Positions 15,839 to 26,309 of a stretch of DNA of 64,000 bases are shown piece by piece (position 1 is the stretch's first letter; each line of letters starts with the position of its first letter). Source of the DNA: Escherichia phage vB_EcoM_VR20; the sequence record NC_028894.1; one strand, 5' to 3'. The translations under genes were made by a program, and so were the position numbers. Under the pieces are notes generated by a model. That model had not been told where the DNA came from. It was given only the letters and a program-made list of their open reading frames with translations, and did not search any database.

Positions 15839-15901
15839 TTTGTTTTCCTCATGTGCAATTGATATGAACATTGTATCGCACTTCCTTGTGCTTGTAAACC
15901 C

Positions 15902-18020: not shown

Positions 18021-19553
18021 TTATTTTAATCCAGTCTTTGACCAGTCGCCAAATACATCTTCGAATGTGTCTGCATGGTCTTTATCGAAACGGAACCCTT
18101 TGATAATCGGCAGGAACAATGCAACCGTATTATCTTTACGAGTCTCGGAAGTCAACCAACCATTACATTCACAGTCGGCAATCATTCCAACCAATTCACC
18201 TTTACGGGCTTTAACCATCAAGGCTTCACGGTCCATTTCATGACGCTCCTCAATCGGAATAGTAACCCATTTTTTGGTTTTCTTATCTTTAACTTGAGTT
18301 GTGTCTTTAAAACCAGAACCACAGTTATTTGTAATCTTACCACAAGAAGAACGAAGCACAACACCACCAATCTTATTCGGGTCTTTATCGTGCTCGTAAT
18401 ATCCAATGATTTCCATTGCAATGTCAATTACTTCTTTGAACTTGTACAAGTTCTTTGAGCGCTTGTTTTCCCAAATCGATGCCATGTTCTTAAGGATAAT
18501 ACCTTCAAGACCTTCATCCACATATTTCTTATAGATAACCTTCGCTTCATCGAGATTGTTAACAACATGGTTTTCAATCAGAATCATGCGGTCAAAACCA
18601 TGCAGCACCACGTTATCTGCAATCATCTTTTCCAGAACAGCAAAACGCACATCGTATTTCAACGGATTGAGAATCTTAACATCAGAATAGACTTCAATCA
18701 GTGGAACATAATCCCAAACCTGGAATTTCATACAAGCAGCTTCTGTTGCCGAAATAGTTCCTTTCAATGATTTGTTTGCCAGACCATTTGAAAAGGTTCT
18801 TGATTCCGCAGTTTCTTGTGCAGGGGCAATCTCATTTGAATCGTCAAAAAGGAAGCCCAAACCGTCATTCTGGGGAGCTACTTTCTGTTCATGGTATACT
18901 AACTCACCGTCAATCAAAACGCCCTCAGGATGTCTCTCACGCGCTTCACGAGTAGCTTCAATCAATTCCTTTTTAAGGAGGTCAAGCTTGAGGTATTCGT
19001 TGCCAGCTCGGGATAACAATCGAACATCATCCAACTCATCGCCACGAACTTCTGCAAAACACCGAGCGCCGTCGGCTTTCAATTGTGCAAAGGCCGGGAA
19101 CTTAATGTTCTTGGCAATACCGGCTTCATCATAGGAAGAAGCGAGCATCTGCGGTTGTTCTGGAATTAAACCTTTCCAAACCTTATTTGCAATTGATACG
19201 GATGCCCCGCATTCCAGGTCACGCATCATCACACGGCGCAGGACTTCAACATCTGCTTTTTTACCATCGGCAATATAGCCAGATAATTCCTCGATTGCAG
19301 CATTACCTGTTAATTTACGAGAGGCCAATGTGAATTCGATAAAGTCAAGCATATCATCGATATTCAGCATACCAAAGCTTTGAGTCGTTGTTCCAGGTTT
19401 TGGCCATTTCTTGATATAGAACTGGATGCCTTTGGAATATGTCAAACGATACACACGTTTGAGGGTTTCATTGTCAGAATACGATTCCAGAATAGCTTGT
19501 TTCTCTTTAGTAGAATCGGTTGCAGCAATTTCATTTAAAATATCTAAAATCAT
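18021..19553 (-). CDS. 30: ATP-dependent DNA ligase gp30
   Basis: Adenylation motif KADGARC; strong recalled T4 ligase identity; ATG with AGAGGTGA Shine-Dalgarno. Confidence 0.9.
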   Translation of the reverse strand: MILDILNEIAATDSTKEKQAILESYSDNETLKRVYRLTYSKGIQFYIKKWPKPGTTTQSFGMLNIDDMLDFIEFTLASRKLTGNAAIEELSGYIADGKKADVEVLRRVMMRDLECGASVSIANKVWKGLIPEQPQMLASSYDEAGIAKNIKFPAFAQLKADGARCFAEVRGDELDDVRLLSRAGNEYLKLDLLKKELIEATREARERHPEGVLIDGELVYHEQKVAPQNDGLGFLFDDSNEIAPAQETAESRTFSNGLANKSLKGTISATEAACMKFQVWDYVPLIEVYSDVKILNPLKYDVRFAVLEKMIADNVVLHGFDRMILIENHVVNNLDEAKVIYKKYVDEGLEGIILKNMASIWENKRSKNLYKFKEVIDIAMEIIGYYEHDKDPNKIGGVVLRSSCGKITNNCGSGFKDTTQVKDKKTKKWVTIPIEERHEMDREALMVKARKGELVGMIADCECNGWLTSETRKDNTVALFLPIIKGFRFDKDHADTFEDVFGDWSKTGLK

Positions 19554-19562
19554 AATCACCTC

Positions 19563-19841: not shown

Positions 19842-20665
19842 CAATTACCCCCTTGGCCACCGGTCGGTTGATTGTACCAATATTCAATGCCAGTACCTAC
19901 GCGTGGACCATATTGATATGGATATGCTGGATTATATCCAGGGGTCCATGGTTGACCTGGTTGCCAGCCTTGCTGCATTTGTTGTTGAAGACGTCGAGTT
20001 TCACGAAACAGTTCGTCCAGTTTACGGAGTTCATCAGGGGTGAATTCTGGTTTGACTGGTTCATCTTTGTGTTTCAGTTTAAGCTGCCCAGCTACATCGT
20101 CCCAATTAAAAACTTTGGAAGCTGTTTTAGGAATAGCATTACGTTCGCCACGGGCCATCCAATAAACCGGGACTTCAAGGATTTCACTCGCATGGTCGCA
20201 ATGGTGTGCAAGGTCATCAATATAACAAACGACATTATATTTGGTCTTCGCTTTCTGGAATAACTCTTCTTTAGAGGCTGTATGGCCGCACATCATCACT
20301 TCTTTAAATGCACCAGGGAACAAAGCATTCAGGTTGAATTGACGATTCAGACGGGCGTCAATGGAATCACCCAGAGCCGTAACAGCCACAAAATCATATT
20401 GCTCTTTGAGGTTATTAATAACCCTTAACGCATCTGCGTAAGGAGACAAATAACGAATAAAATCTGAACAGTTATATTTCTCAATCAACTGTGCTCCCAA
20501 CTCTTCATCACAATTGAACAGTTTACCAGGGGTCACAAATTTTTCATCCTGAATCATCTTAAGGATATGTTCCAGGGGTAAATTATATTTTTGGGCGAAA
20601 TAAGGCAAGCCTGACTGCCATGACAAACATACGCCATCAATATCTGTTAAAATAACGGGTTTCAT
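19841..20665 (-). CDS. HAD-superfamily phosphatase-like protein with Q/P/G/Y-rich tail (T4 30.2 position)
   Basis: N-terminal ILTDIDGV is an HAD motif I, with a later DD motif; low-complexity C-terminal tail. Confidence 0.6.
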   Translation of the reverse strand: MKPVILTDIDGVCLSWQSGLPYFAQKYNLPLEHILKMIQDEKFVTPGKLFNCDEELGAQLIEKYNCSDFIRYLSPYADALRVINNLKEQYDFVAVTALGDSIDARLNRQFNLNALFPGAFKEVMMCGHTASKEELFQKAKTKYNVVCYIDDLAHHCDHASEILEVPVYWMARGERNAIPKTASKVFNWDDVAGQLKLKHKDEPVKPEFTPDELRKLDELFRETRRLQQQMQQGWQPGQPWTPGYNPAYPYQYGPRVGTGIEYWYNQPTGGQGGN

Positions 20666-21120
20666 AATGCATCTCTCAATTGGTTAAGTATGTCAATAAA
20701 TTCTTGTTCAGTCAATATTGTATCATGAACAGTAAGGTGGCTCGCCATCGAATGCTTTAAAACTTTGCCCTTTGTAGCTTGTAATGCGTCGCGGAATCCT
20801 TTGTTTTGGAGCGCTGCTTCAAAATATGCATTTGTATACAACTCTTTCCATGATGTAGAGTATCTTGAAAAGGGAATTCCAAGCCAGAAAAGCGTCCCAC
20901 GGTCCGCAGCTCTAGCATAAGCTCTTCCACTTTGCTGGGCGGCCAATCCGGACATCCCAAATATACGTTTTTGTTGTTCACAATTTCTCACCTTACACCC
21001 TTGCAGGAAGCCTTCAAGACCTCCAAACTGGATGCCCTCCATAACAAAAGGCCATTTAGCAAAGTTACTTAATGCGCATGATGGCCATGGGAAATTGCTT
21101 CTGATTTCTAACTCAGACAT
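20662..21120 (-). CDS. NADAR/YbiA-like protein, tentative (T4 30.3 position)
   Basis: Motifs LSNFAKWP and EGFLQGCK resemble YbiA/NADAR as recalled; not search-verified. Confidence 0.5.
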   Translation of the reverse strand: MSELEIRSNFPWPSCALSNFAKWPFVMEGIQFGGLEGFLQGCKVRNCEQQKRIFGMSGLAAQQSGRAYARAADRGTLFWLGIPFSRYSTSWKELYTNAYFEAALQNKGFRDALQATKGKVLKHSMASHLTVHDTILTEQEFIDILNQLRDAL

Positions 21121-21325
21121 CTTTGACACTTACTACATCAACGTTTGCCCAATGACCATAACCAGGTAGACGGTCTTTAATAGATAATCCACCGTCAGAT
21201 TTCAGCATTTTAATTGTTTTAGTATATGGTTCAATATTTCGGGCCCATGGACTCACGTCAGTTACGCGATAAGTAACTTCAACCATTTCTGTGCCCAAAA
21301 TTTTCTGAATCAGTTTCTTAAACAT
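21113..21325 (-). CDS. Hypothetical protein
   Basis: 70 aa ORF with ATG start in a tightly packed minus-strand array. Confidence 0.5.
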   Translation of the reverse strand: MFKKLIQKILGTEMVEVTYRVTDVSPWARNIEPYTKTIKMLKSDGGLSIKDRLPGYGHWANVDVVSVKDV

Positions 21326-21326
21326 A

Positions 21327-21521
21327 TTATCCTCGCCTTAAACATTTGATTACAGACAGTTCACCGTCCATGCGAACGTCTTCAGTTCCATCAACCCACA
21401 GGACTACGTAGGCTTCTTTAATTTGTGTATTACCCAATTTAAAAGCAGGCAAAACCTTAGAAATCATTCCAGGAATACCTACGCCTTTTAACTGGACAGT
21501 TTGTGATAAGAATAGTTGCAT
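21327..21521 (-). CDS. Hypothetical protein
   Basis: 64 aa ORF with ATG start. Confidence 0.45.
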   Translation of the reverse strand: MQLFLSQTVQLKGVGIPGMISKVLPAFKLGNTQIKEAYVVLWVDGTEDVRMDGELSVIKCLRRG

Positions 21522-21808
21522 TAAAACCTCATCTGAAACCCGTGTGATTTAACATTGCCACCATAGATGTCAGACGTATTGACTTCACGAGCAGCACTTG
21601 GGTCGATATTGATATCATGGTTGAGCTTAGTGATTGCCAGGGTATCACGACCATTAACAGTACGAAATTCTACCGGACATACAACATCGGCATAAGCCTT
21701 AATAGATTCACGAGTAGGTTGTTTGTCGGCAGGAACGTCTTTACCTGCTTTAGAGAAAACAACTTCACAGAAATTTTTACGAGTATCAAAATAAGTGGTC
21801 ATAAACAT
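21521..21808 (-). CDS. Hypothetical protein
   Basis: Internal ATG with GAGGAAAATATT Shine-Dalgarno; hairpin ggggctttcgcccc just upstream. Confidence 0.5.
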   Translation of the reverse strand: MFMTTYFDTRKNFCEVVFSKAGKDVPADKQPTRESIKAYADVVCPVEFRTVNGRDTLAITKLNHDINIDPSAAREVNTSDIYGGNVKSHGFQMRF

Positions 21809-21844
21809 AATATTTTCCTCAAGGGGCTTTCGCCCCATTTAAGA

Positions 21845-22210
21845 TTAGATATCAAATTCATTAAGAACTACATCAAAGATTGCTTCCAGGTGTTCAGGTT
21901 TTGCTTTGTTACCCAGGATATGACGAATCCAAGTTTTAACCAACAGCTTGCGATTAACACCATTCCAGCAAGGATGAGTACCTAAATCACGCTCGCGGAA
22001 ATCATCATCTAAAGCAATTTTAAAGGTTGAACCAGTCATAGTGATTGAAAGAGTGATACCATTTTCAAATCGCATATAAACGTAGTTAGGAGTCATGTAC
22101 TGTTCAATTTCGCACACTGAACCATTTTTATGTTTCCACAGGCAAATAACTTCAGAAGAACCTGGGATGCAGTTAGAAACATATTTGCGTTCAAAGTTGA
22201 TGTAGTTCAT
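21845..22210 (-). CDS. Hypothetical protein
   Basis: 121 aa; ATG preceded by the conserved GGAGAATAAA leader and promoter/stem-loop cassette. Confidence 0.55.
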   Translation of the reverse strand: MNYINFERKYVSNCIPGSSEVICLWKHKNGSVCEIEQYMTPNYVYMRFENGITLSITMTGSTFKIALDDDFRERDLGTHPCWNGVNRKLLVKTWIRHILGNKAKPEHLEAIFDVVLNEFDI

Positions 22211-22281
22211 TTTATTCTCCAGTTGTTTTCATTTGTTGGTACAGGTCTATAATATCATAACCTGTACCAAAGTAAACTGTT
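22211..22281 (-). promoter_or_regulatory. Early promoter with stem-loop (PeSL-like cassette)
   Basis: Minus strand GTTTAC-17-TATTAT; 8-bp stem ggtacagg/cctgtacc encloses the -10. Confidence 0.45.
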
Positions 22282-22650
22282 TTATGCGACTTTAATCCAA
22301 TTATCTAAATTTAATTCACCCTTAGCTTTCATTTTTTCAATCAAATCATCAGCAGTGGTGCGACCATTTTGATACCATGTAACATCTTCAGAATAACCAG
22401 TTTCTTCATCTTCATAGGTCTTACAACGAATCTTACCAAGAATCAAAGTTTTCAGTTCGTAGGTATCACCAGTAAAAAAGTTTGTTACCATAATTTTCCA
22501 GGAGAAGTCATCAGAAGGACCTTCTGGAGTCATGCAAGAAACGAATTCAAATTGTTCTTTATACAAGTGCCATTGCATTTCTTTAGTTTCAATGGCTTTG
22601 TAGCCGTCGTGGTCTTTACCTTTGATGTATGAGTTAAGATTGATTTTCAT
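22282..22650 (-). CDS. Hypothetical protein
   Basis: 122 aa; ATG preceded by the conserved leader repeat. Confidence 0.55.
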   Translation of the reverse strand: MKINLNSYIKGKDHDGYKAIETKEMQWHLYKEQFEFVSCMTPEGPSDDFSWKIMVTNFFTGDTYELKTLILGKIRCKTYEDEETGYSEDVTWYQNGRTTADDLIEKMKAKGELNLDNWIKVA

Positions 22651-22734
22651 TTTATTCTCCAGTGTTTTATTGTGTAACTCAGTATGGAATCATTATGCAC
22701 TGGACCAACCCTGTTGTAAACCTTTTATGGAAAT
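22651..22734 (-). promoter_or_regulatory. Early promoter plus conserved leader repeat
   Basis: TTTACA-17-CATAAT, then leader TCCATACTGAGTTACAC..CACTGGAGAATAAAATG shared with 38309, 57450 and 61474. Confidence 0.5.
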
Positions 22735-22758
22735 AAAAAAGGGACTCCGAAGAGTCCC
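22735..22758 (-). terminator. UUCG hairpin terminator
   Basis: A-run then gggactc-cgaa-gagtccc directly after the stop of the 53-aa ORF. Confidence 0.55.
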
Positions 22759-22763
22759 TGAAC

Positions 22764-22925
22764 TTATGCTTTCGGCTTACCAAAGCAAGCTGCATCGGCA
22801 CGCAATACCGCACGAGCACGAGCCTGAAGTTTATCAGTTACCTGATTGATTCGCTTGTTGGACGCACGCTTGTAACCAGCGCGTTTGGAGGAGCCATCAA
22901 CAACTTTAACTTCTTTCTTAGCCAT
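22764..22925 (-). CDS. Small basic protein, 53 aa
   Basis: MAKKEVKVVDGSSKRAGYKRASNKR..; AAGAG Shine-Dalgarno; terminator right after the stop; not in the ORF track. Confidence 0.45.
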   Translation of the reverse strand: MAKKEVKVVDGSSKRAGYKRASNKRINQVTDKLQARARAVLRADAACFGKPKA

Positions 22926-23222
22926 ATTAAATTCTCTTTAAAATAGAATGCAGGACTTATTGACATTGCCTGCGCAAGCCCTCGAAGGGAACATTAGGTT
23001 TCGGATATTTAACGACAGGATAACCATAAACCTCGTCATCATACCAACCACGACTTAGACAGATAACCTTTTTCTGACGCGTGATAGTACAAAATACATT
23101 CAAGAGGTACACCGTAAAACTGCTGGGGTCTTAAAACTATAATGATTCACAAATCATTAATCAGGCAGTTCGACAGCTCCTCGATTTTCTAGCCGCACTT
23201 AAGGTAGCGAATCACCTAAAAC

Positions 23223-23477
23223 TTACTTCAGAGTAACGACAAAATGTCGAACAGCTTTGCGAGCAGCAGATGCCAGCGGCTTAGCAAATTTCAGTTCATC
23301 TTTTGCTTCGAGCACAGCGCGAAGGTCGGTTTGTACCGGGTTAAGATGTTTGAAATACTGCAGAATTTCCAGTGCTTCGGCTTCAACATCAATAGATGCG
23401 CCGTAGTTTTCGTGACCGTTATTCCATGCAGTGCGTTGCAGTTCAAGAGCGTGTTGTAATTGTTTGTTTAAAGACAT
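23223..23477 (-). CDS. rIII: rIII lysis inhibition accessory protein
   Basis: Start MSLNKQLQHALELQR.. with GAGG Shine-Dalgarno; about 84 aa, close to T4 rIII. Confidence 0.75.
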   Translation of the reverse strand: MSLNKQLQHALELQRTAWNNGHENYGASIDVEAEALEILQYFKHLNPVQTDLRAVLEAKDELKFAKPLASAARKAVRHFVVTLK

Positions 23478-23617
23478 TTTAGAAGCCTCAATATGAGGTG
23501 AATATTTGGTGGACACGTTCTTCTGAATTTCACTTCCTTTCGACAAGTCTCTCAGTTGTAGTCCACCGTTTAGGATTCTCCGGGTAACTAACTGGTCCGG
23601 CAGCCAATCCATATTAT

Positions 23618-23625
23618 TATTTATA
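23618..23625 (-). promoter_or_regulatory. Late promoter TATAAATA upstream of rIII
   Basis: Minus strand GTTATAAATAATAAT about 140 nt upstream of the rIII ATG. Confidence 0.4.
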
Positions 23626-23634
23626 ACGCTAATT

Positions 23635-23982
23635 TTACTTATAAAGACAAGGAACAGCTTTATAATGACAGGTCACAAATTTCTGCTTAACTTCTTTAGC
23701 CTGCTTAAGTCCCAGAGCAACCAGAGGATGTGGAACGTTTGCAATCTTGCCAACCGGAAGAGGAGTCAAATCGCCTACTTCACAGAAGCCTTCAGGAACA
23801 TCTGAACCAATCGAAAATACTTCACACATCTCGGGAATTTCACCCTGATGAAGTTTTCCGATAACGATACCTGATGCCGTAGTTTCTTCATCACCAGCTT
23901 GCTTTGGCTCAGAAACCAAAATAATATATTCACCTACTGCTTTAATTGGTAATTCCATATTTAATCCATGTTGTTTGGTCAT
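23635..23982 (-). CDS. 31: Co-chaperonin gp31 (GroES-like)
   Basis: C-terminus ..[41 protein letters not shown] matches recalled T4 gp31. Confidence 0.88.
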
Positions 23983-24315: not shown

Positions 24316-24549
24316 TTATTCCAAAACAGTTTTAATGGTTGTTGCATTACGCTCTTTTAGAGCTCTTAATAGGCTATGGCAATTTTCAAGAATAGGCACC
24401 GTTTTATAGTTCATTTCGGCGCGAGCCCACTCGGATTTATAGTACGATTTCCAACGAGAGAAAAAGTACTTTTTATATTCTACTGAATAGGCTACCAGGT
24501 TTTCACCTTTTGAGTTCAGACCTGAAAACTTAACTAGACGAAATTTCAT
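24316..24549 (-). CDS. Hypothetical protein (T4 31.2 position)
   Basis: 77 aa, ATG start. Confidence 0.5.
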   Translation of the reverse strand: MKFRLVKFSGLNSKGENLVAYSVEYKKYFFSRWKSYYKSEWARAEMNYKTVPILENCHSLLRALKERNATTIKTVLE

Positions 24550-25130
24550 TATTCACCACAAAATTCGTTAATGTTTTCCCAGTTCAATTTGTCTAAACTA
24601 CGCTTAGGCACATTGAACACCTCAATTCCTGCATTCTTCAGGATATCATCCCAACCAGGAATATTCTTATCATACGTTTCACAGTAAACCAATTTCTTGA
24701 TTCCTGATTGAGAAATTGCCTTTGCACAATCAGGACAAGGAGAAAGCGTCACATACATAGTAGCGCCTTCAATTGACGAACCCATTCTGGCTGCGAACAG
24801 AATCGCATTAAGCTCGGCATGAATTTCGTTGTTCTTTGACCATGCAGAATGTTCTTCGCGATGGGCTTTCGCCAATACAAAACGGTCAACCTTACTGAAT
24901 CTCACACATTCTGGCTTATGACCAGGGACGAGAACGGGTTTAGGTTTATTCAGTAACCAACCTTGCTCTTCCGCATGCTCGCAACAGTTGACCCCACCTG
25001 CAGGGGAACCATTATACCCTGTAGAAATAATGCGACCATTCTTTTCAATAACAGCTCCCACTTTCCAGGAGCAACATTTTGATTCTTGAGATACAAGGTA
25101 TGCGATTTGCAGAACAGTAGTTGGTTTCAT
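24549..25130 (-). CDS. cd: dCMP deaminase
   Basis: 193 aa, same as T4 Cd; zinc motifs HAE and PCxxC. Confidence 0.9.
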   Translation of the reverse strand: MKPTTVLQIAYLVSQESKCCSWKVGAVIEKNGRIISTGYNGSPAGGVNCCEHAEEQGWLLNKPKPVLVPGHKPECVRFSKVDRFVLAKAHREEHSAWSKNNEIHAELNAILFAARMGSSIEGATMYVTLSPCPDCAKAISQSGIKKLVYCETYDKNIPGWDDILKNAGIEVFNVPKRSLDKLNWENINEFCGE

Positions 25131-26279: not shown

Positions 26280-26309
26280 ATTATACACCATCCGTGGTGA
26301 AAGTAAACA
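26280..26309 (-). promoter_or_regulatory. T4-type early promoter GTTTAC-17-TATAAT
   Basis: Minus strand GTTTACTTTCACCACGGATGGTGTATAAT, then GAGGAAAACAAA Shine-Dalgarno. Confidence 0.55.

What the first reader, a model, noticed from the sequence alone, without database searches (positions are those of the whole stretch)
21113..22925. Accessory island downstream of the ligase block, ending in a 53-aa basic protein
Five small ORFs are driven by stem-loop promoter cassettes. The last is a 53-aa highly basic protein (MAKKEVKVVDGSSKRAGYKRASNKR..) with its own UUCG terminator, missed by the ORF track.
Basis: seen in the sequence. Interest (0 to 1): 0.4.

Follow-up and report, generated by a model that had tools for sequence, protein, structure and literature searches.

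The report
Known T4-type early genes 30.4–30.9
The flagged stretch is the already-annotated block of small early genes (30.4 to 30.9) of a T4-like coliphage, so it is ordinary, but just upstream of the 53-aa gene lies an unannotated, strongly conserved RNA pseudoknot that may deserve a separate look.

Summary
The ORFs are real, but they are not a new island. Window 21113-22925 holds six minus-strand genes, not five. They are the orthologues of T4 genes 30.4, 30.5, 30.6, 30.7, 30.8 and 30.9, in a VR7-like (Gaprivervirus) phage. They are transcribed towards the ligase gene, so they lie upstream of it.

The 53-aa basic protein is 100% identical to the annotated gp30.9 of phage VR7 and has homologues in about 1000 phage records. 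It was "missed" only because it is shorter than a 60-aa ORF cut-off. All six frames are under purifying selection. In T4, 30.4-30.8 are early at RNA and protein level; 30.9 has an early transcript.

Two junctions (30.9/30.8 and 30.8/30.7) carry stem-loop plus early-promoter cassettes, which match the published PeSLs. The UUCG terminator is real and conserved. 30.6-30.3 are translationally coupled and have no cassettes of their own.

Functions are unknown, except that T4 30.5 binds host Ppk and triggers the bNACHT11 sensor.

Outside the finding, the rIII-30.9 gap holds a 52-nt H-type pseudoknot (23043-22992, minus strand). It has covariation in both helices, is present in 42 of 48 loci that carry 30.9, matches nothing in Rfam and is unannotated.

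The parts
21113..21325 (-). Gene 30.4 orthologue (70 aa)
   Evidence: ORF. Annotated as 30.4 in VR7. PHROG 2042, E = 6e-33. dN/dS 0.10-0.30. Overlaps the 30.3 start by 8 nt.
21327..21521 (-). Gene 30.5 orthologue (64 aa)
   Evidence: PHROG 1690, E = 7e-29. dN/dS 0.14-0.21. T4 30.5 binds host Ppk and activates bNACHT11 (bioRxiv 10.1101/2024.12.17.629029). Its start overlaps the 30.6 stop (TAATG).
21521..21808 (-). Gene 30.6 orthologue (95 aa; the true start is the ATG at 21808, not the 105-aa start given by the ORF lister)
   Evidence: VR7, T4 and PhAPEC2 all annotate 288 nt. PHROG 2153, E = 1.5e-48. dN/dS 0.04-0.10.
21823..21836 (-). GGGGC-GAAA-GCCCC hairpin between the 30.7 stop and the 30.6 ribosome-binding site; no U-run follows
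   Evidence: Fold (-13.5 kcal/mol, z = -2.7). Sequence. Function not tested.
21845..22210 (-). Gene 30.7 orthologue (121 aa)
   Evidence: Pfam PF06919 Phage_T4_Gp30_7, E = 4.7e-52. PHROG 1582. dN/dS 0.03-0.11.
22238..22277 (-). Early-promoter cassette in front of 30.7. GTTTAC (22277-22272) and TATTAT (22254-22249) lie inside the inverted repeat GGTACAGG (22268-22261) / CCTGTACC (22245-22238).
   Evidence: pattern match. (fold, z = -4.4, 0 of 200 shuffles). (nearly invariant in T4, PhAPEC2 and VR7).
22282..22650 (-). Gene 30.8 orthologue (122 aa)
   Evidence: Pfam PF06019 Phage_30_8, E = 7e-44. PHROG 1507. dN/dS 0.04-0.35.
22692..22721 (-). Early promoter in front of 30.8: GTTTAC(A) -35, 17-nt spacer, CATAAT -10. 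It is the promoter half of a PeSL-type cassette.
   Evidence: GTTTAC is invariant in 7 phages of several genera, and the GGAGAATAAAATGAA start region is also invariant. The published T4-type PeSL promoter consensus is TTTACW-N17-TAYWAT (PMC4122927).
22734..22759 (-). Intrinsic terminator after 30.9: AGGGACUC-UUCG-GAGUCCCU followed by UUUUUU
   Evidence: Conserved with compensatory stem changes in T4, PhAPEC2, KP17, Proteus phage and 92A1. Annotated as a terminator in PhAPEC2.
22764..22925 (-). Gene 30.9 orthologue: 53-aa basic protein with a Lys/Ala-rich tail, the invariant motif SKRAGYKRxSNxR and a C-terminal helix
   Evidence: 100% identical to VR7 gp30.9; 997 phage records hit. PHROG 1427, E = 2.9e-26. 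Alignments. dN/dS 0.08-0.3 in most pairs. AlphaFold2: helix 24-48, pLDDT 71. T4 transcript is early.
22950..22989 (-). Two small hairpins in the 30.9 leader: CCCU-UCG-AGGG (22989-22979) and GCAGG-CAAUGUCAAUAAGU-CCUGC (22973-22950)
   Evidence: Sequence. Both recur in relatives. The second has CUGG/CCAG stems in Proteus-type phages. Assessed by eye only.
22992..23043 (-). Conserved H-type pseudoknot in the rIII-30.9 gap (outside the finding). S1 pairs 23037-23031 (G23034 bulged) with 23019-23014. S2 pairs loop GGUU 23025-23022 with AACC 23000-22997. The conserved linker is GUUAAAUAUCCGA.
   Evidence: Alignments. Pair counts. RNAalifold. Covariance model R1: unique in the window (71.9 bits against 14.5 for the next hit), one copy in 42 of 48 loci that carry 30.9, and 0 hits in 511 kb of unrelated contigs. 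No Rfam family matches.
23223..23477 (-). rIII (84 aa). Context only: the gene upstream of 30.9 and probably co-transcribed with it.
   Evidence: ORF; VR7 annotation, 255 nt. The order rIII then 30.9 holds in all genera examined.

Best explanation
The interval is the 30.4-30.9 segment of the early-gene region between rIII and the ligase gene, in a VR7-like (Gaprivervirus, Tevenvirinae) coliphage.

Shown:
- Six conserved minus-strand genes are orthologous to T4 30.4-30.9.
- A conserved intrinsic terminator lies after 30.9.
- A T4-type early promoter lies directly behind that terminator (a PeSL cassette) and serves 30.8.
- A second early promoter, embedded in an inverted repeat, serves 30.7.
- 30.6, 30.5, 30.4 and 30.3 are packed tightly or overlap.

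Inferred transcription scheme:
- Host sigma-70 RNA polymerase transcribes three units early in infection.
- Unit (i) is rIII plus 30.9. It starts at promoters upstream of rIII and ends at the UUCG terminator.
- Unit (ii) is 30.8.
- Unit (iii) is 30.7 through 30.3 and onward to the ligase gene, with translational coupling.
- The GGAG in the identical 30.8 and 30.7 Shine-Dalgarno regions is the motif that RegB cuts to shut off early mRNAs.

Inferred function:
- The products are small, dispensable host-takeover proteins that act by binding host factors. T4 30.5 binding Ppk is the one documented example. Bacterial sensors can in turn detect them.
- gp30.9 is most likely a small nucleic-acid-binding protein, given its basic disordered tail and Arg-rich helix (about 0.4).
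- The conserved pseudoknot in its leader is a cis-acting RNA element of the rIII-30.9 transcript. It could be an operator for gp30.9 (about 0.2) or a stability or processing element (about 0.3).
For: Identity and synteny:
- Megablast gives 94-95% identity over 3.1 kb to VR7, VR25, P896 and others, with gene-by-gene annotation 30.3...30.9, rIII, 31.
- T4, RB3 and PhAPEC2 have the same gene order.

Families: PF06919, PF06019 and PF08010, plus PHROGs for all six genes.

Coding: dN/dS is well below 1 for all six genes, across pairs whose dS ranges from 0.1 to saturation.

Expression of the T4 orthologues:
- 30.4-30.8 are early at protein and transcript level, and 30.9 is early at transcript level (PMC9697503 Table S2).

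Cassettes:
- Terminator and promoters.
- PeSL definition and T4-type consensus: PMC4122927.
- Distant 30.9 homologues sit directly behind TTGACA/TATAAT-type promoters. In L167 the promoter follows a terminator hairpin, which is a textbook PeSL.

Co-transcription of rIII and 30.9:
- No promoter-like site was found in the gap.
- T4 has no middle promoter between P31 and P30.2 (PMC2988021).
- In several genera the pseudoknot starts 0-10 nt after the rIII stop, which leaves no room for a promoter.

Other points:
- RegB cuts GGAG in early Shine-Dalgarno sequences (PMC9409239).
- 30.5 binds Ppk and activates bNACHT11.
- gp30.9 features.
- Pseudoknot.
Against: - No function has been shown for 30.4, 30.6, 30.7, 30.8 or 30.9. 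Pfam, PHROGs, NCBIfam and PADLOC give no functional name.
- gp30.9 protein was not detected in the T4 proteome study.
- The PDB profile search for gp30.9 gave only insignificant hits (E >= 0.39).
- The gp30.9 model is essentially one helix, so no fold comparison is meaningful.
- Promoter assignments come from consensus and conservation, not from mapped transcription starts in this phage. The -10 of the 30.8 promoter (CATAAT) departs from TAYWAT at its first base.
- An operator role for the pseudoknot is weakened by three things. Its distance to the 30.9 start varies from 60 to about 330 nt. It is absent from distant 30.9 homologues. It is kept in phi92-like phages that have no 30.9.
Confidence: 0.88

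Rival explanations
1. A previously unrecognised accessory island lies downstream of the ligase block. It is made of five independently promoted mini-genes and ends in a novel, unannotated basic protein.
For: - The small ORFs, two stem-loop/promoter cassettes and the UUCG terminator are real.
- Gene content downstream of 30.9 does vary between genera, as expected for a plastic region.
Against: - Every ORF is annotated in VR7, T4, RB3 and PhAPEC2.
- The basic protein is gp30.9, 100% identical to ADR32599 of VR7.
- The genes are on the minus strand and upstream of the ligase gene.
- There are six ORFs, and only two have their own cassette.
Confidence: 0.03
2. The 53-aa frame is not translated. 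The conservation reflects an RNA or other non-coding element at the end of the rIII transcript.
For: - gp30.9 was not detected by mass spectrometry in T4.
- The surrounding gap is rich in conserved RNA structures.
- The Shine-Dalgarno sequence (AAAGAGAA) is weak in the window.
Against: - Amino-acid conservation with synonymous turnover: dS 0.4-1.3 against dN 0.06-0.33, and dN/dS down to 0.08.
- An invariant peptide motif is kept in relatives only about 50% identical, and these have different leaders and their own promoters and ribosome-binding sites.
- The frame is open and of similar length in all genera.
- A very basic 6-kDa protein gives few detectable tryptic peptides (inference).
Confidence: 0.04
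3. The conserved 52-nt block at 23043-22992 is a DNA-level signal, such as a promoter or a protein-binding site, and not an RNA pseudoknot.
For: - The unpaired positions (AUGAUG, GUU, AUC, CGUUAAAU, CAAAA) are more conserved than the stems.
- In T4-type sequences TTGAAT-17-TATGGT can be read across it. This is my own reading of the sequence.
Against: - Both helices keep pairing through double changes. S1 is GAC/GUC, GGC/GCC, GUG/CAC, GUC/GAC or GUU/AAC. S2 is GGUU/AACC, CAAGGUU/AACCUUG, GGUAG/CUAC, GUGAG/CUCAC or GAUGG/CCAUC.
- 83-85% of cells are paired, against 33-52% when the partners are slid, and 0 of 500 shuffles reach the observed covariation score.
- The putative hexamers are not conserved across genera.
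- The promoter scan finds nothing there.
Confidence: 0.12
4. The pseudoknot serves rIII rather than 30.9. It would be a 3'-UTR structure that stabilises or terminates processing of the rIII message, or a site for ribosomal protein S1, which RIII binds.
For: - It always lies downstream of rIII, and in Proteus-, 92A1-, L136-, L147- and L155-type phages it starts 0-10 nt after the rIII stop codon.
- phi92-like phages captured it together with the 3' end of rIII and without 30.9.
- RIII interacts with S1 (PMC9409239).
- That S1 selects pseudoknot ligands in SELEX is my recollection and was not checked here.
Against: - In the window and in T4 it lies 120-180 nt from the rIII stop and only 60 nt from the 30.9 start.
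- There are no data on RNA ends.
- The phi92 copy is about 98% identical to T4, so it is a recent capture and says little about selection.
Confidence: 0.3

Closest known systems
Bacteriophage T4 genes 30.4-30.9 (AF158101 128758-130540) and their annotated orthologues in VR7 (VR7_gp219-224)
   Same: - Same order, strand, sizes and neighbours (rIII upstream, 30.3-30 downstream).
- 30.9 is 100% identical to VR7 at the protein level.
- The other five genes have dN 0.003-0.10 against VR7.
- The T4/RB3 orthologues are clearly homologous.
   Different: - The window's 30.9 is the 53-aa short-tail allele (MAKKEVKVV...) of Gaprivervirus, against 58 aa (MAKQAKAKKAVEKKV...) in T4.
- The 30.8 allele is the 122-aa type, against 110 aa in T4.
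- The window's 30.6 allele differs from VR7 at saturated synonymous distance (dS about 2.5) although the flanking genes are close. This indicates mosaic exchange.
PeSL (promoter-early stem-loop) cassettes of T4-type phages (Arbiol et al. 2010, PMC2839356; Comeau et al. 2014, PMC4122927)
   Same: - A stem-loop or terminator is followed directly by a T4-type early promoter (TTTACW-N17-TAYWAT), between small variable ORFs of a plastic region.
- The 30.9/30.8 junction fits, and the distant homologue locus L167 shows the same arrangement in front of 30.9.
   Different: - At the 30.8/30.7 junction the inverted repeat spans the promoter spacer and the start region instead of preceding the promoter, and no U-run follows it.
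- A role in recombinational shuffling was not tested here.
T4 gene 32 autoregulatory leader pseudoknot and ribosomal-protein leader operators (named from general knowledge)
   Same: A small structured RNA, including an H-type pseudoknot, lies in the leader of a gene for a nucleic-acid-binding protein. This is the working analogy for a gp30.9 operator.
   Different: - There is no sequence or covariance-model similarity to any Rfam family.
- The distance to the start codon is variable.
- No binding data exist.
- This is an analogy of mechanism only.
Pistol self-cleaving ribozyme (Rfam Pistol); the resemblance was recalled from memory
   Same: Both have a hairpin whose loop pairs with a downstream segment, joined by an A-rich linker that begins GUUAAAU.
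   Different: - The Rfam scan found no pistol match, even at E <= 10 on a 351-nt stretch.
- I could not find the P2/P3 helices or a cleavage-site arrangement.
- The neighbouring hairpins change order between lineages.
- It is not a member.

Membership tests
T4 gp30.9 family (PHROG 1427) | Significant profile match over the full length | tested here: met
   PHROG 1427, E = 2.9e-26, residues 1-53. 100% identical to VR7 gp30.9.
T4 gp30.9 family (PHROG 1427) | Position between rIII and 30.8, on the same strand | tested here: met
   The order rIII then 30.9 holds in Tequatro-, Mosig-, Gapriver-, Jiaoda-, Kagamiyama- and Gelderlandvirus and in an unclassified relative.
T4 gp30.9 family (PHROG 1427) | Conserved core motif SKRAGYKRxSNxR(I/V) followed by an Arg-rich helix | tested here: met
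   Invariant columns in alignments A1 and A2. The motif is kept in distant members P0027-P0037.
Pfam PF06919 (Gp30.7), PF06019 (GP30.8); PHROGs 2042, 1690, 2153 (30.4, 30.5, 30.6) | Score above the curated cut-off, or a strong E-value over the full length | tested here: met
   175.2 bits against a cut-off of 27, and 149.1 bits against 25. PHROG E-values are 6e-33, 7e-29 and 1.5e-48.
PeSL cassette | Stem-loop immediately followed by an early promoter close to TTTACW-N17-TAYWAT | tested here: met
   At 22759-22692 there is a hairpin and U-run, then TTTACA-17-CATAAT, with one mismatch in the -10.
PeSL cassette | Located between small variable ORFs of a hyperplastic region | tested here: met
   Gene content after 30.9 or 30.8 differs between genera. 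For example, 30.5 is absent in PhAPEC2, and KP17, EcS1 and the Proteus phage carry extra ORFs of about 500 nt.
PeSL cassette | Mediates recombinational shuffling or mini-circle formation | not testable with these tools
   Indirect hints only: the mosaic 30.6 allele and the permuted capture of the neighbouring gap by phi92.
Rho-independent terminator | G+C-rich hairpin followed by a U-run, conserved through compensatory changes | tested here: met
   8-bp stem with 5 G-C pairs, a UUCG loop and U6. Stems are GGGACUC, GGGAGAC, GGGAUUCC or GAGGACUCC, each paired with its complement. Activity in vivo was not tested.
bNACHT11 activator / Ppk binder (T4 30.5) | Homology to T4 30.5 | tested here: met
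   PHROG 1690. About two-thirds identical to the RB3 (T4-type) orthologue, counted by eye on the sequences.
bNACHT11 activator / Ppk binder (T4 30.5) | Binds Ppk and triggers bNACHT11 | not testable with these tools
   Shown only for T4 30.5 in bioRxiv 10.1101/2024.12.17.629029.
H-type RNA pseudoknot (structural class) | Two helices, with the loop of the first pairing downstream, each supported by covariation | tested here: met
   S1 is 87% paired with 4 covarying pairs. S2 is 79-82% paired with 4 covarying pairs. Slid controls give 33-52%. Caveat: the structure was derived by eye from the same sequences.
H-type RNA pseudoknot (structural class) | The RNA exists and folds this way in infected cells | not testable with these tools
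   No transcript-end or probing data were available.
Any Rfam 15 family (including Pistol, PreQ1, Fluoride) | Covariance-model match at or near the gathering score | tested here: not met
   Nothing in the rIII-30.9 gap at E <= 1 in the window or in five relatives. At E <= 10 there were only chance hits, on the opposite strand.

The most novel reading that the evidence does not exclude
The 52-nt pseudoknot at 23043-22992 is a functional structured RNA of T-even-type phages that has not been described before, and the other shuffled hairpin modules of the rIII-30.9 gap belong with it. Its most interesting possible role is as the operator through which the small basic protein gp30.9 (or RIII/S1) controls the rIII-30.9 transcript. 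I put the narrower operator-for-gp30.9 version at about 0.15-0.2.
Probability: 0.4. Interest if true: 0.5.

Novelty: already known. Interest (0 to 1): 0.2.

Why it matters
The finding itself adds nothing new. It rediscovers T4 genes 30.4-30.9 and PeSL cassettes in a VR7-like phage. Its practical value is as a calibration case: sequence reading alone correctly found small real genes, a terminator and promoter cassettes, but got the strand logic, the gene count and the novelty wrong.

Two things could matter to phage biologists:
- These early "ORFans" are now being linked to host targets and to bacterial immune sensing (30.5, Ppk and bNACHT11). The still-uncharacterised neighbours, including the very conserved basic gp30.9, are therefore reasonable next candidates.
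- The rIII-30.9 gap carries a covariation-supported pseudoknot. It is present in about 775 phage records, almost never annotated, and absent from Rfam. If functional, it would be a new cis-acting RNA in one of the best-studied phages.

Tried and rejected
- Function of gp30.9 by sequence: Pfam, NCBIfam and PADLOC gave nothing. PHROGs gave only "unknown function". The PDB profile search gave only SlmA at E >= 0.39, which I treat as noise. The exhaustive profile search found only 15 cluster representatives, all small basic proteins of the same family.
- Function of gp30.9 by structure: AlphaFold2 gives a disordered tail plus one helix at pLDDT 71. I did not run a fold search because a single helix would only give meaningless matches.
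- A small ORF across the pseudoknot (ATGATG...): rejected. There are 1-nt indels between the window and T4. EcS1 has a stop at codon 4 and L160 at codon 2. L146, L159 and L161 have no ATG.
- Pistol or riboswitch identity of the pseudoknot: rejected by the Rfam scans.
- A tRNA-like or stable RNA gene, suggested by the phi92 copy inside a tRNA cluster: rejected as evidence. That copy is a 98-99% identical, circularly permuted capture of T4's rIII 3' end plus the gap. ARAGORN finds no tRNA or tmRNA in the window.
- A promoter for 30.9 inside the gap: none found by the scan. My candidate hexamers are not conserved.
- My first viral-contig pattern scan mostly hit unrelated coding sequences. I turned those contigs into a negative control for the covariance model.
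- Literature searches for a pseudoknot or RNA motif at rIII/30.9 returned nothing relevant. The T4 genome review PMC150520 is not held.

Full report
WHAT IS THERE

Reading 20400-23600 and listing ORFs of 30 aa or more shows a tight series of minus-strand ORFs. The surrounding ORFs identify the context:
- a 512-aa ATP-dependent ligase-like ORF at 18021-19559 (minus);
- an rIII-like ORF ending at 23223;
- a GroES-like gp31 ORF at 23635-23982;
- a dCMP deaminase at 24549-25130.

Megablast of 20600-23700 against 50,697 phage records hits 902 records. The best hits are 94-95% identical over the full 3.1 kb: Escherichia phages P896, CJ20, VR25, VR7 and Shigella phage SP18. VR7 (Gaprivervirus, Tevenvirinae) annotates this stretch gene by gene as 30.3, 30.3', 30.4, 30.5, 30.6, 30.7, 30.8, 30.9, rIII, 31. 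RB3, T4 and PhAPEC2 show the same order.

In window coordinates, all on the minus strand:

| Gene | Coordinates | Length |
|---|---|---|
| 30.4 | 21113-21325 | 70 aa |
| 30.5 | 21327-21521 | 64 aa |
| 30.6 | 21521-21808 | 95 aa |
| 30.7 | 21845-22210 | 121 aa |
| 30.8 | 22282-22650 | 122 aa |
| 30.9 | 22764-22925 | 53 aa |

For 30.6, the 105-aa start of the ORF lister lies inside a hairpin and is not the annotated start.

So there are six genes, not five. They are read towards the ligase gene, so the block is upstream of it and 30.9 is the first gene of the series.

THE 53-aa PROTEIN

- tblastn finds it in 997 phage records. It is 100% identical to VR7 gp30.9 (ADR32599) and 60-80% identical to most other records, including T4-type phages.
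- It matches PHROG 1427 at E = 2.9e-26. Pfam, NCBIfam and PADLOC give nothing.
- The family alignment shows a Lys/Ala-rich N-terminal tail of variable length, then the invariant core G-x-S-K-R-A-G-Y-K-R-x-S-N-x-R, then R-A-R-A-V-L-R.
- An exhaustive profile search of 1.84 billion representatives finds only 15 clusters. All are small basic proteins that keep SKRAGYKRxSNKR(I/V) followed by a helix.
- AlphaFold2 gives a disordered tail and a single helix at residues 24-48, with pLDDT 71. The PDB profile search is negative.
- It was "missed by the ORF track" because 53 aa is below a 60-aa cut-off.

ARE THE FRAMES REAL?

Codon-aligned Nei-Gojobori estimates against VR7, RB3, PhAPEC2 and, for 30.9, four further genera give dN/dS of:
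- 0.08-0.3 for most 30.9 pairs (up to 0.69 for pairs that involve the divergent Proteus-phage allele);
- 0.04-0.35 for 30.8;
- 0.03-0.11 for 30.7;
- 0.02-0.10 for 30.6;
- 0.14-0.21 for 30.5;
- 0.10-0.30 for 30.4.

In the T4 time-resolved omics study, 30.4-30.8 are classed early at both protein and transcript level. 30.9 has an early transcript but its protein was not detected (PMC9697503, Table S2).

REGULATORY ANATOMY

(a) After 30.9 comes AGGGACUC-UUCG-GAGUCCCU plus U6 at 22759-22734. In seven phages the hairpin keeps its UUCG loop while the stem changes on both sides. It is followed by a T-run, an invariant GTTTAC, a -10 hexamer, and an invariant GGAGAATAAAATGAA start region for 30.8. PhAPEC2 annotates the hairpin as a terminator. 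This is the composite terminator/early-promoter element published as PeSL, whose T4-type promoter consensus is TTTACW-N17-TAYWAT (PMC4122927).

(b) Before 30.7, GTTTAC...TATTAT (22277-22249) is embedded in the inverted repeat GGTACAGG/CCTGTACC. The RNA fold is -18.8 kcal/mol with z = -4.4. The cassette is almost invariant in T4, PhAPEC2 and VR7. No U-run follows it.

(c) Between 30.7 and 30.6 there is only a GGGGC-GAAA-GCCCC hairpin and a GAGG Shine-Dalgarno sequence. 30.6/30.5 overlap (TAATG), 30.5/30.4 are 1 nt apart, and 30.4/30.3 overlap by 8 nt.

(d) The generic promoter scan is not enriched in the region (9 against 8.2 +/- 3.0). The T4-type pattern is mildly enriched in the window (6 against 1.8 +/- 1.4). 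Conservation, not counts, carries the promoter argument.

(e) No promoter-like site lies in the 297-nt gap between rIII and 30.9. T4 has no mapped middle promoter between P31 and P30.2 (PMC2988021). rIII is reported to be served by early, middle and late promoters (PMC9409239).

I therefore infer three early units: rIII-30.9, then 30.8, then 30.7 onward. The GGAG in the 30.8 and 30.7 Shine-Dalgarno sequences is the motif cut by RegB in early mRNAs (PMC9409239). Cleavage at these sites was not tested.

FUNCTION

Only one gene of the block has experimental data. T4 30.5 co-purifies with host polyphosphate kinase. It is one of three T4 proteins that activate the bacterial NLR-related sensor bNACHT11, and deleting it helps T4 escape that defence (bioRxiv 10.1101/2024.12.17.629029). 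The window's 30.5 is an orthologue (PHROG 1690), about two-thirds identical to the RB3 protein.

For the other genes I commit to the class-level explanation: small, dispensable early proteins that bind host factors. For gp30.9, its composition and predicted shape make nucleic-acid binding the most likely activity (about 0.4). This is inference, not a shown result.

BEYOND THE FINDING: A CONSERVED PSEUDOKNOT

Aligning the rIII-30.9 gap from eight phages of seven lineages revealed a block conserved in all of them. It carries 1-nt indels, which exclude coding.

I collected loci through the 30.9 protein to avoid pattern bias, and extracted the block with an HMM. The structure is as follows:
- S1 is a hairpin that pairs 23037-23031 with 23019-23014; G23034 is bulged.
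- Its loop carries the conserved GUU...GGUUAUC.
- A conserved A-rich linker, GUUAAAUAUCCGA, follows the hairpin.
- S2 pairs the loop GGUU (23025-23022) with AACC (23000-22997).

Both helices covary:
- S1: GAC/GUC, GGC/GCC, GUG/CAC, GUC/GAC, GUU/AAC.
- S2: GGUU/AACC, GUUGGUU/AACCAAC, CAAGGUU/AACCUUG, GGUAG/CUAC, GUGAG/CUCAC, GAUGG/CCAUC.

On 24 distinct sequences, 84.7% of cells pair, against 33-50% when the partners are slid. The covariation score is 0.417 against 0.119 or less, and 0 of 500 shuffles reach it. A model-based alignment of 30 distinct sequences gives 82.8% paired and a score of 0.376. RNAalifold, which cannot see pseudoknots, independently predicts the base of S1.

A covariance model gives these results:
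- exactly one copy in the 64-kb window (71.9 bits, against 14.5 for the next hit);
- one copy, upstream of 30.9 and on the same strand, in 42 of 48 loci that carry 30.9;
- none in 511 kb of unrelated viral contigs that all contain my 17-base seed pattern.

Rfam 15 has no match, even at E <= 10. blastn finds the block in 775 phage records, nearly always with no feature annotated under it.

Caveats:
- I derived the structure by eye from these same sequences.
- Relatedness inflates the shuffle statistics.
- There is no direct evidence that the RNA folds this way.

WHAT THE PSEUDOKNOT MIGHT DO

- It always lies between rIII and 30.9.
- It lies 60 nt from the 30.9 start in the window and in T4, but up to about 330 nt away in KP17. 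In several genera it starts 0-10 nt after the rIII stop.
- More distant 30.9 homologues (L163, L164, L166, L167) lack it and sit directly behind strong sigma-70-type promoters.
- Other small hairpins with conserved loops share the gap and change order between lineages.
- phi92-like phages, which are not T4-like, carry the block inside their tRNA cluster. BLAST shows that this copy is a 98-99% identical, circularly permuted capture of T4's last 85 nt of rIII plus the whole gap, and it has no 30.9. It is therefore a recent transfer and not independent evidence.

My ranking is: a stability or processing element of the rIII-30.9 transcript (about 0.3), an operator for gp30.9 (about 0.2), a DNA-level signal (about 0.1), and the rest unknown.

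VERDICT

The object is already known (T4 genes 30.4-30.9 with PeSL cassettes), so interest in the finding as given is low. The pseudoknot is the only part with some novelty potential, and I report it separately.

Noticed in passing
window 22992-23043 (minus strand): A 52-nt H-type pseudoknot lies in the rIII-30.9 gap. It is conserved across Tevenvirinae genera, with compensatory changes in both helices. It is unique in the window, absent from Rfam, and unannotated in about 775 phage records.
   Followed up: yes
window 22926-23222 (minus strand); L003, L004, L005, L007 gaps: The rIII-30.9 gap is built from small hairpin modules with conserved loops. Module B has the loop UACCUUAAGU and stems CGC/GCG, UCAC/GUGA, UGC/GCA or AGC/GCU. 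There is also a CCCUUCGAGGG hairpin, a GCAGG-CAAUGUCAAUAAGU-CCUGC hairpin and an AAUGAUU palindrome. Their order relative to the pseudoknot differs between lineages. KP17 and EcS1 also carry an insert of about 150 nt (GGCAAGTGCATGCTACC...GTGTGCAACAGATAAGAG), after the pseudoknot in KP17 and before it in EcS1.
   Followed up: partly
L168 (phage phi92) 1671-2018; L169 (phage arall), same position: Justusliebigvirus phages are not T4-like, but they carry a 98-99% identical, circularly permuted copy of T4 DNA inside their tRNA cluster, between tRNA-Gly and tRNA-Gln. The order is [rIII stop through the gap to the first bases of 30.9] followed by [the last 85 nt of rIII plus 13 nt]. phi92 annotates the fused 42-aa frame as 'putative rIII'. 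The layout is what opening a circular intermediate would give.
   Followed up: partly
window 21521-21808 compared with L001 2422-2709: Mosaicism: the window's 30.6 allele differs from VR7 at saturated synonymous distance (dS about 2.5, dN 0.10). The neighbouring genes 30.7, 30.8 and 30.9 have dS of 0.18, 0.09 and 0. This suggests a recombinational allele swap within the block.
   Followed up: partly
window 26280-26308 and 15870-15899 (minus strand): Two further GTTTAC-N-TAnnnT matches also have an inverted repeat inside the promoter spacer (CACCA...TGGTG and GCAC...GTGC), like the 30.7 cassette. Promoters with an embedded hairpin may be a recurring design in this genome.
   Followed up: no
window 22651-22665 and 22211-22225 (minus strand): 30.8 and 30.7 have identical translation-initiation regions (ACTGGAGAATAAAATGAA). 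The GGAGAATAAAATGAA core in front of 30.8 is invariant across seven phages. It contains the GGAG motif that RegB targets.
   Followed up: partly
one search hit table (for example OL870316, PQ030847): Several phage records annotate the 30.9 orthologue as '1,4-alpha-glucan (glycogen) branching enzyme'. That is implausible for a protein of about 58 aa and looks like propagated mis-annotation.
   Followed up: no
window 20757-20981 (minus strand): A 74-aa ORF lies in another frame inside 30.3. It corresponds to the annotated T4/VR7 gene 30.3' (internal translation). In the T4 omics table, 30.3' has an early protein class but no transcript class.
   Followed up: no
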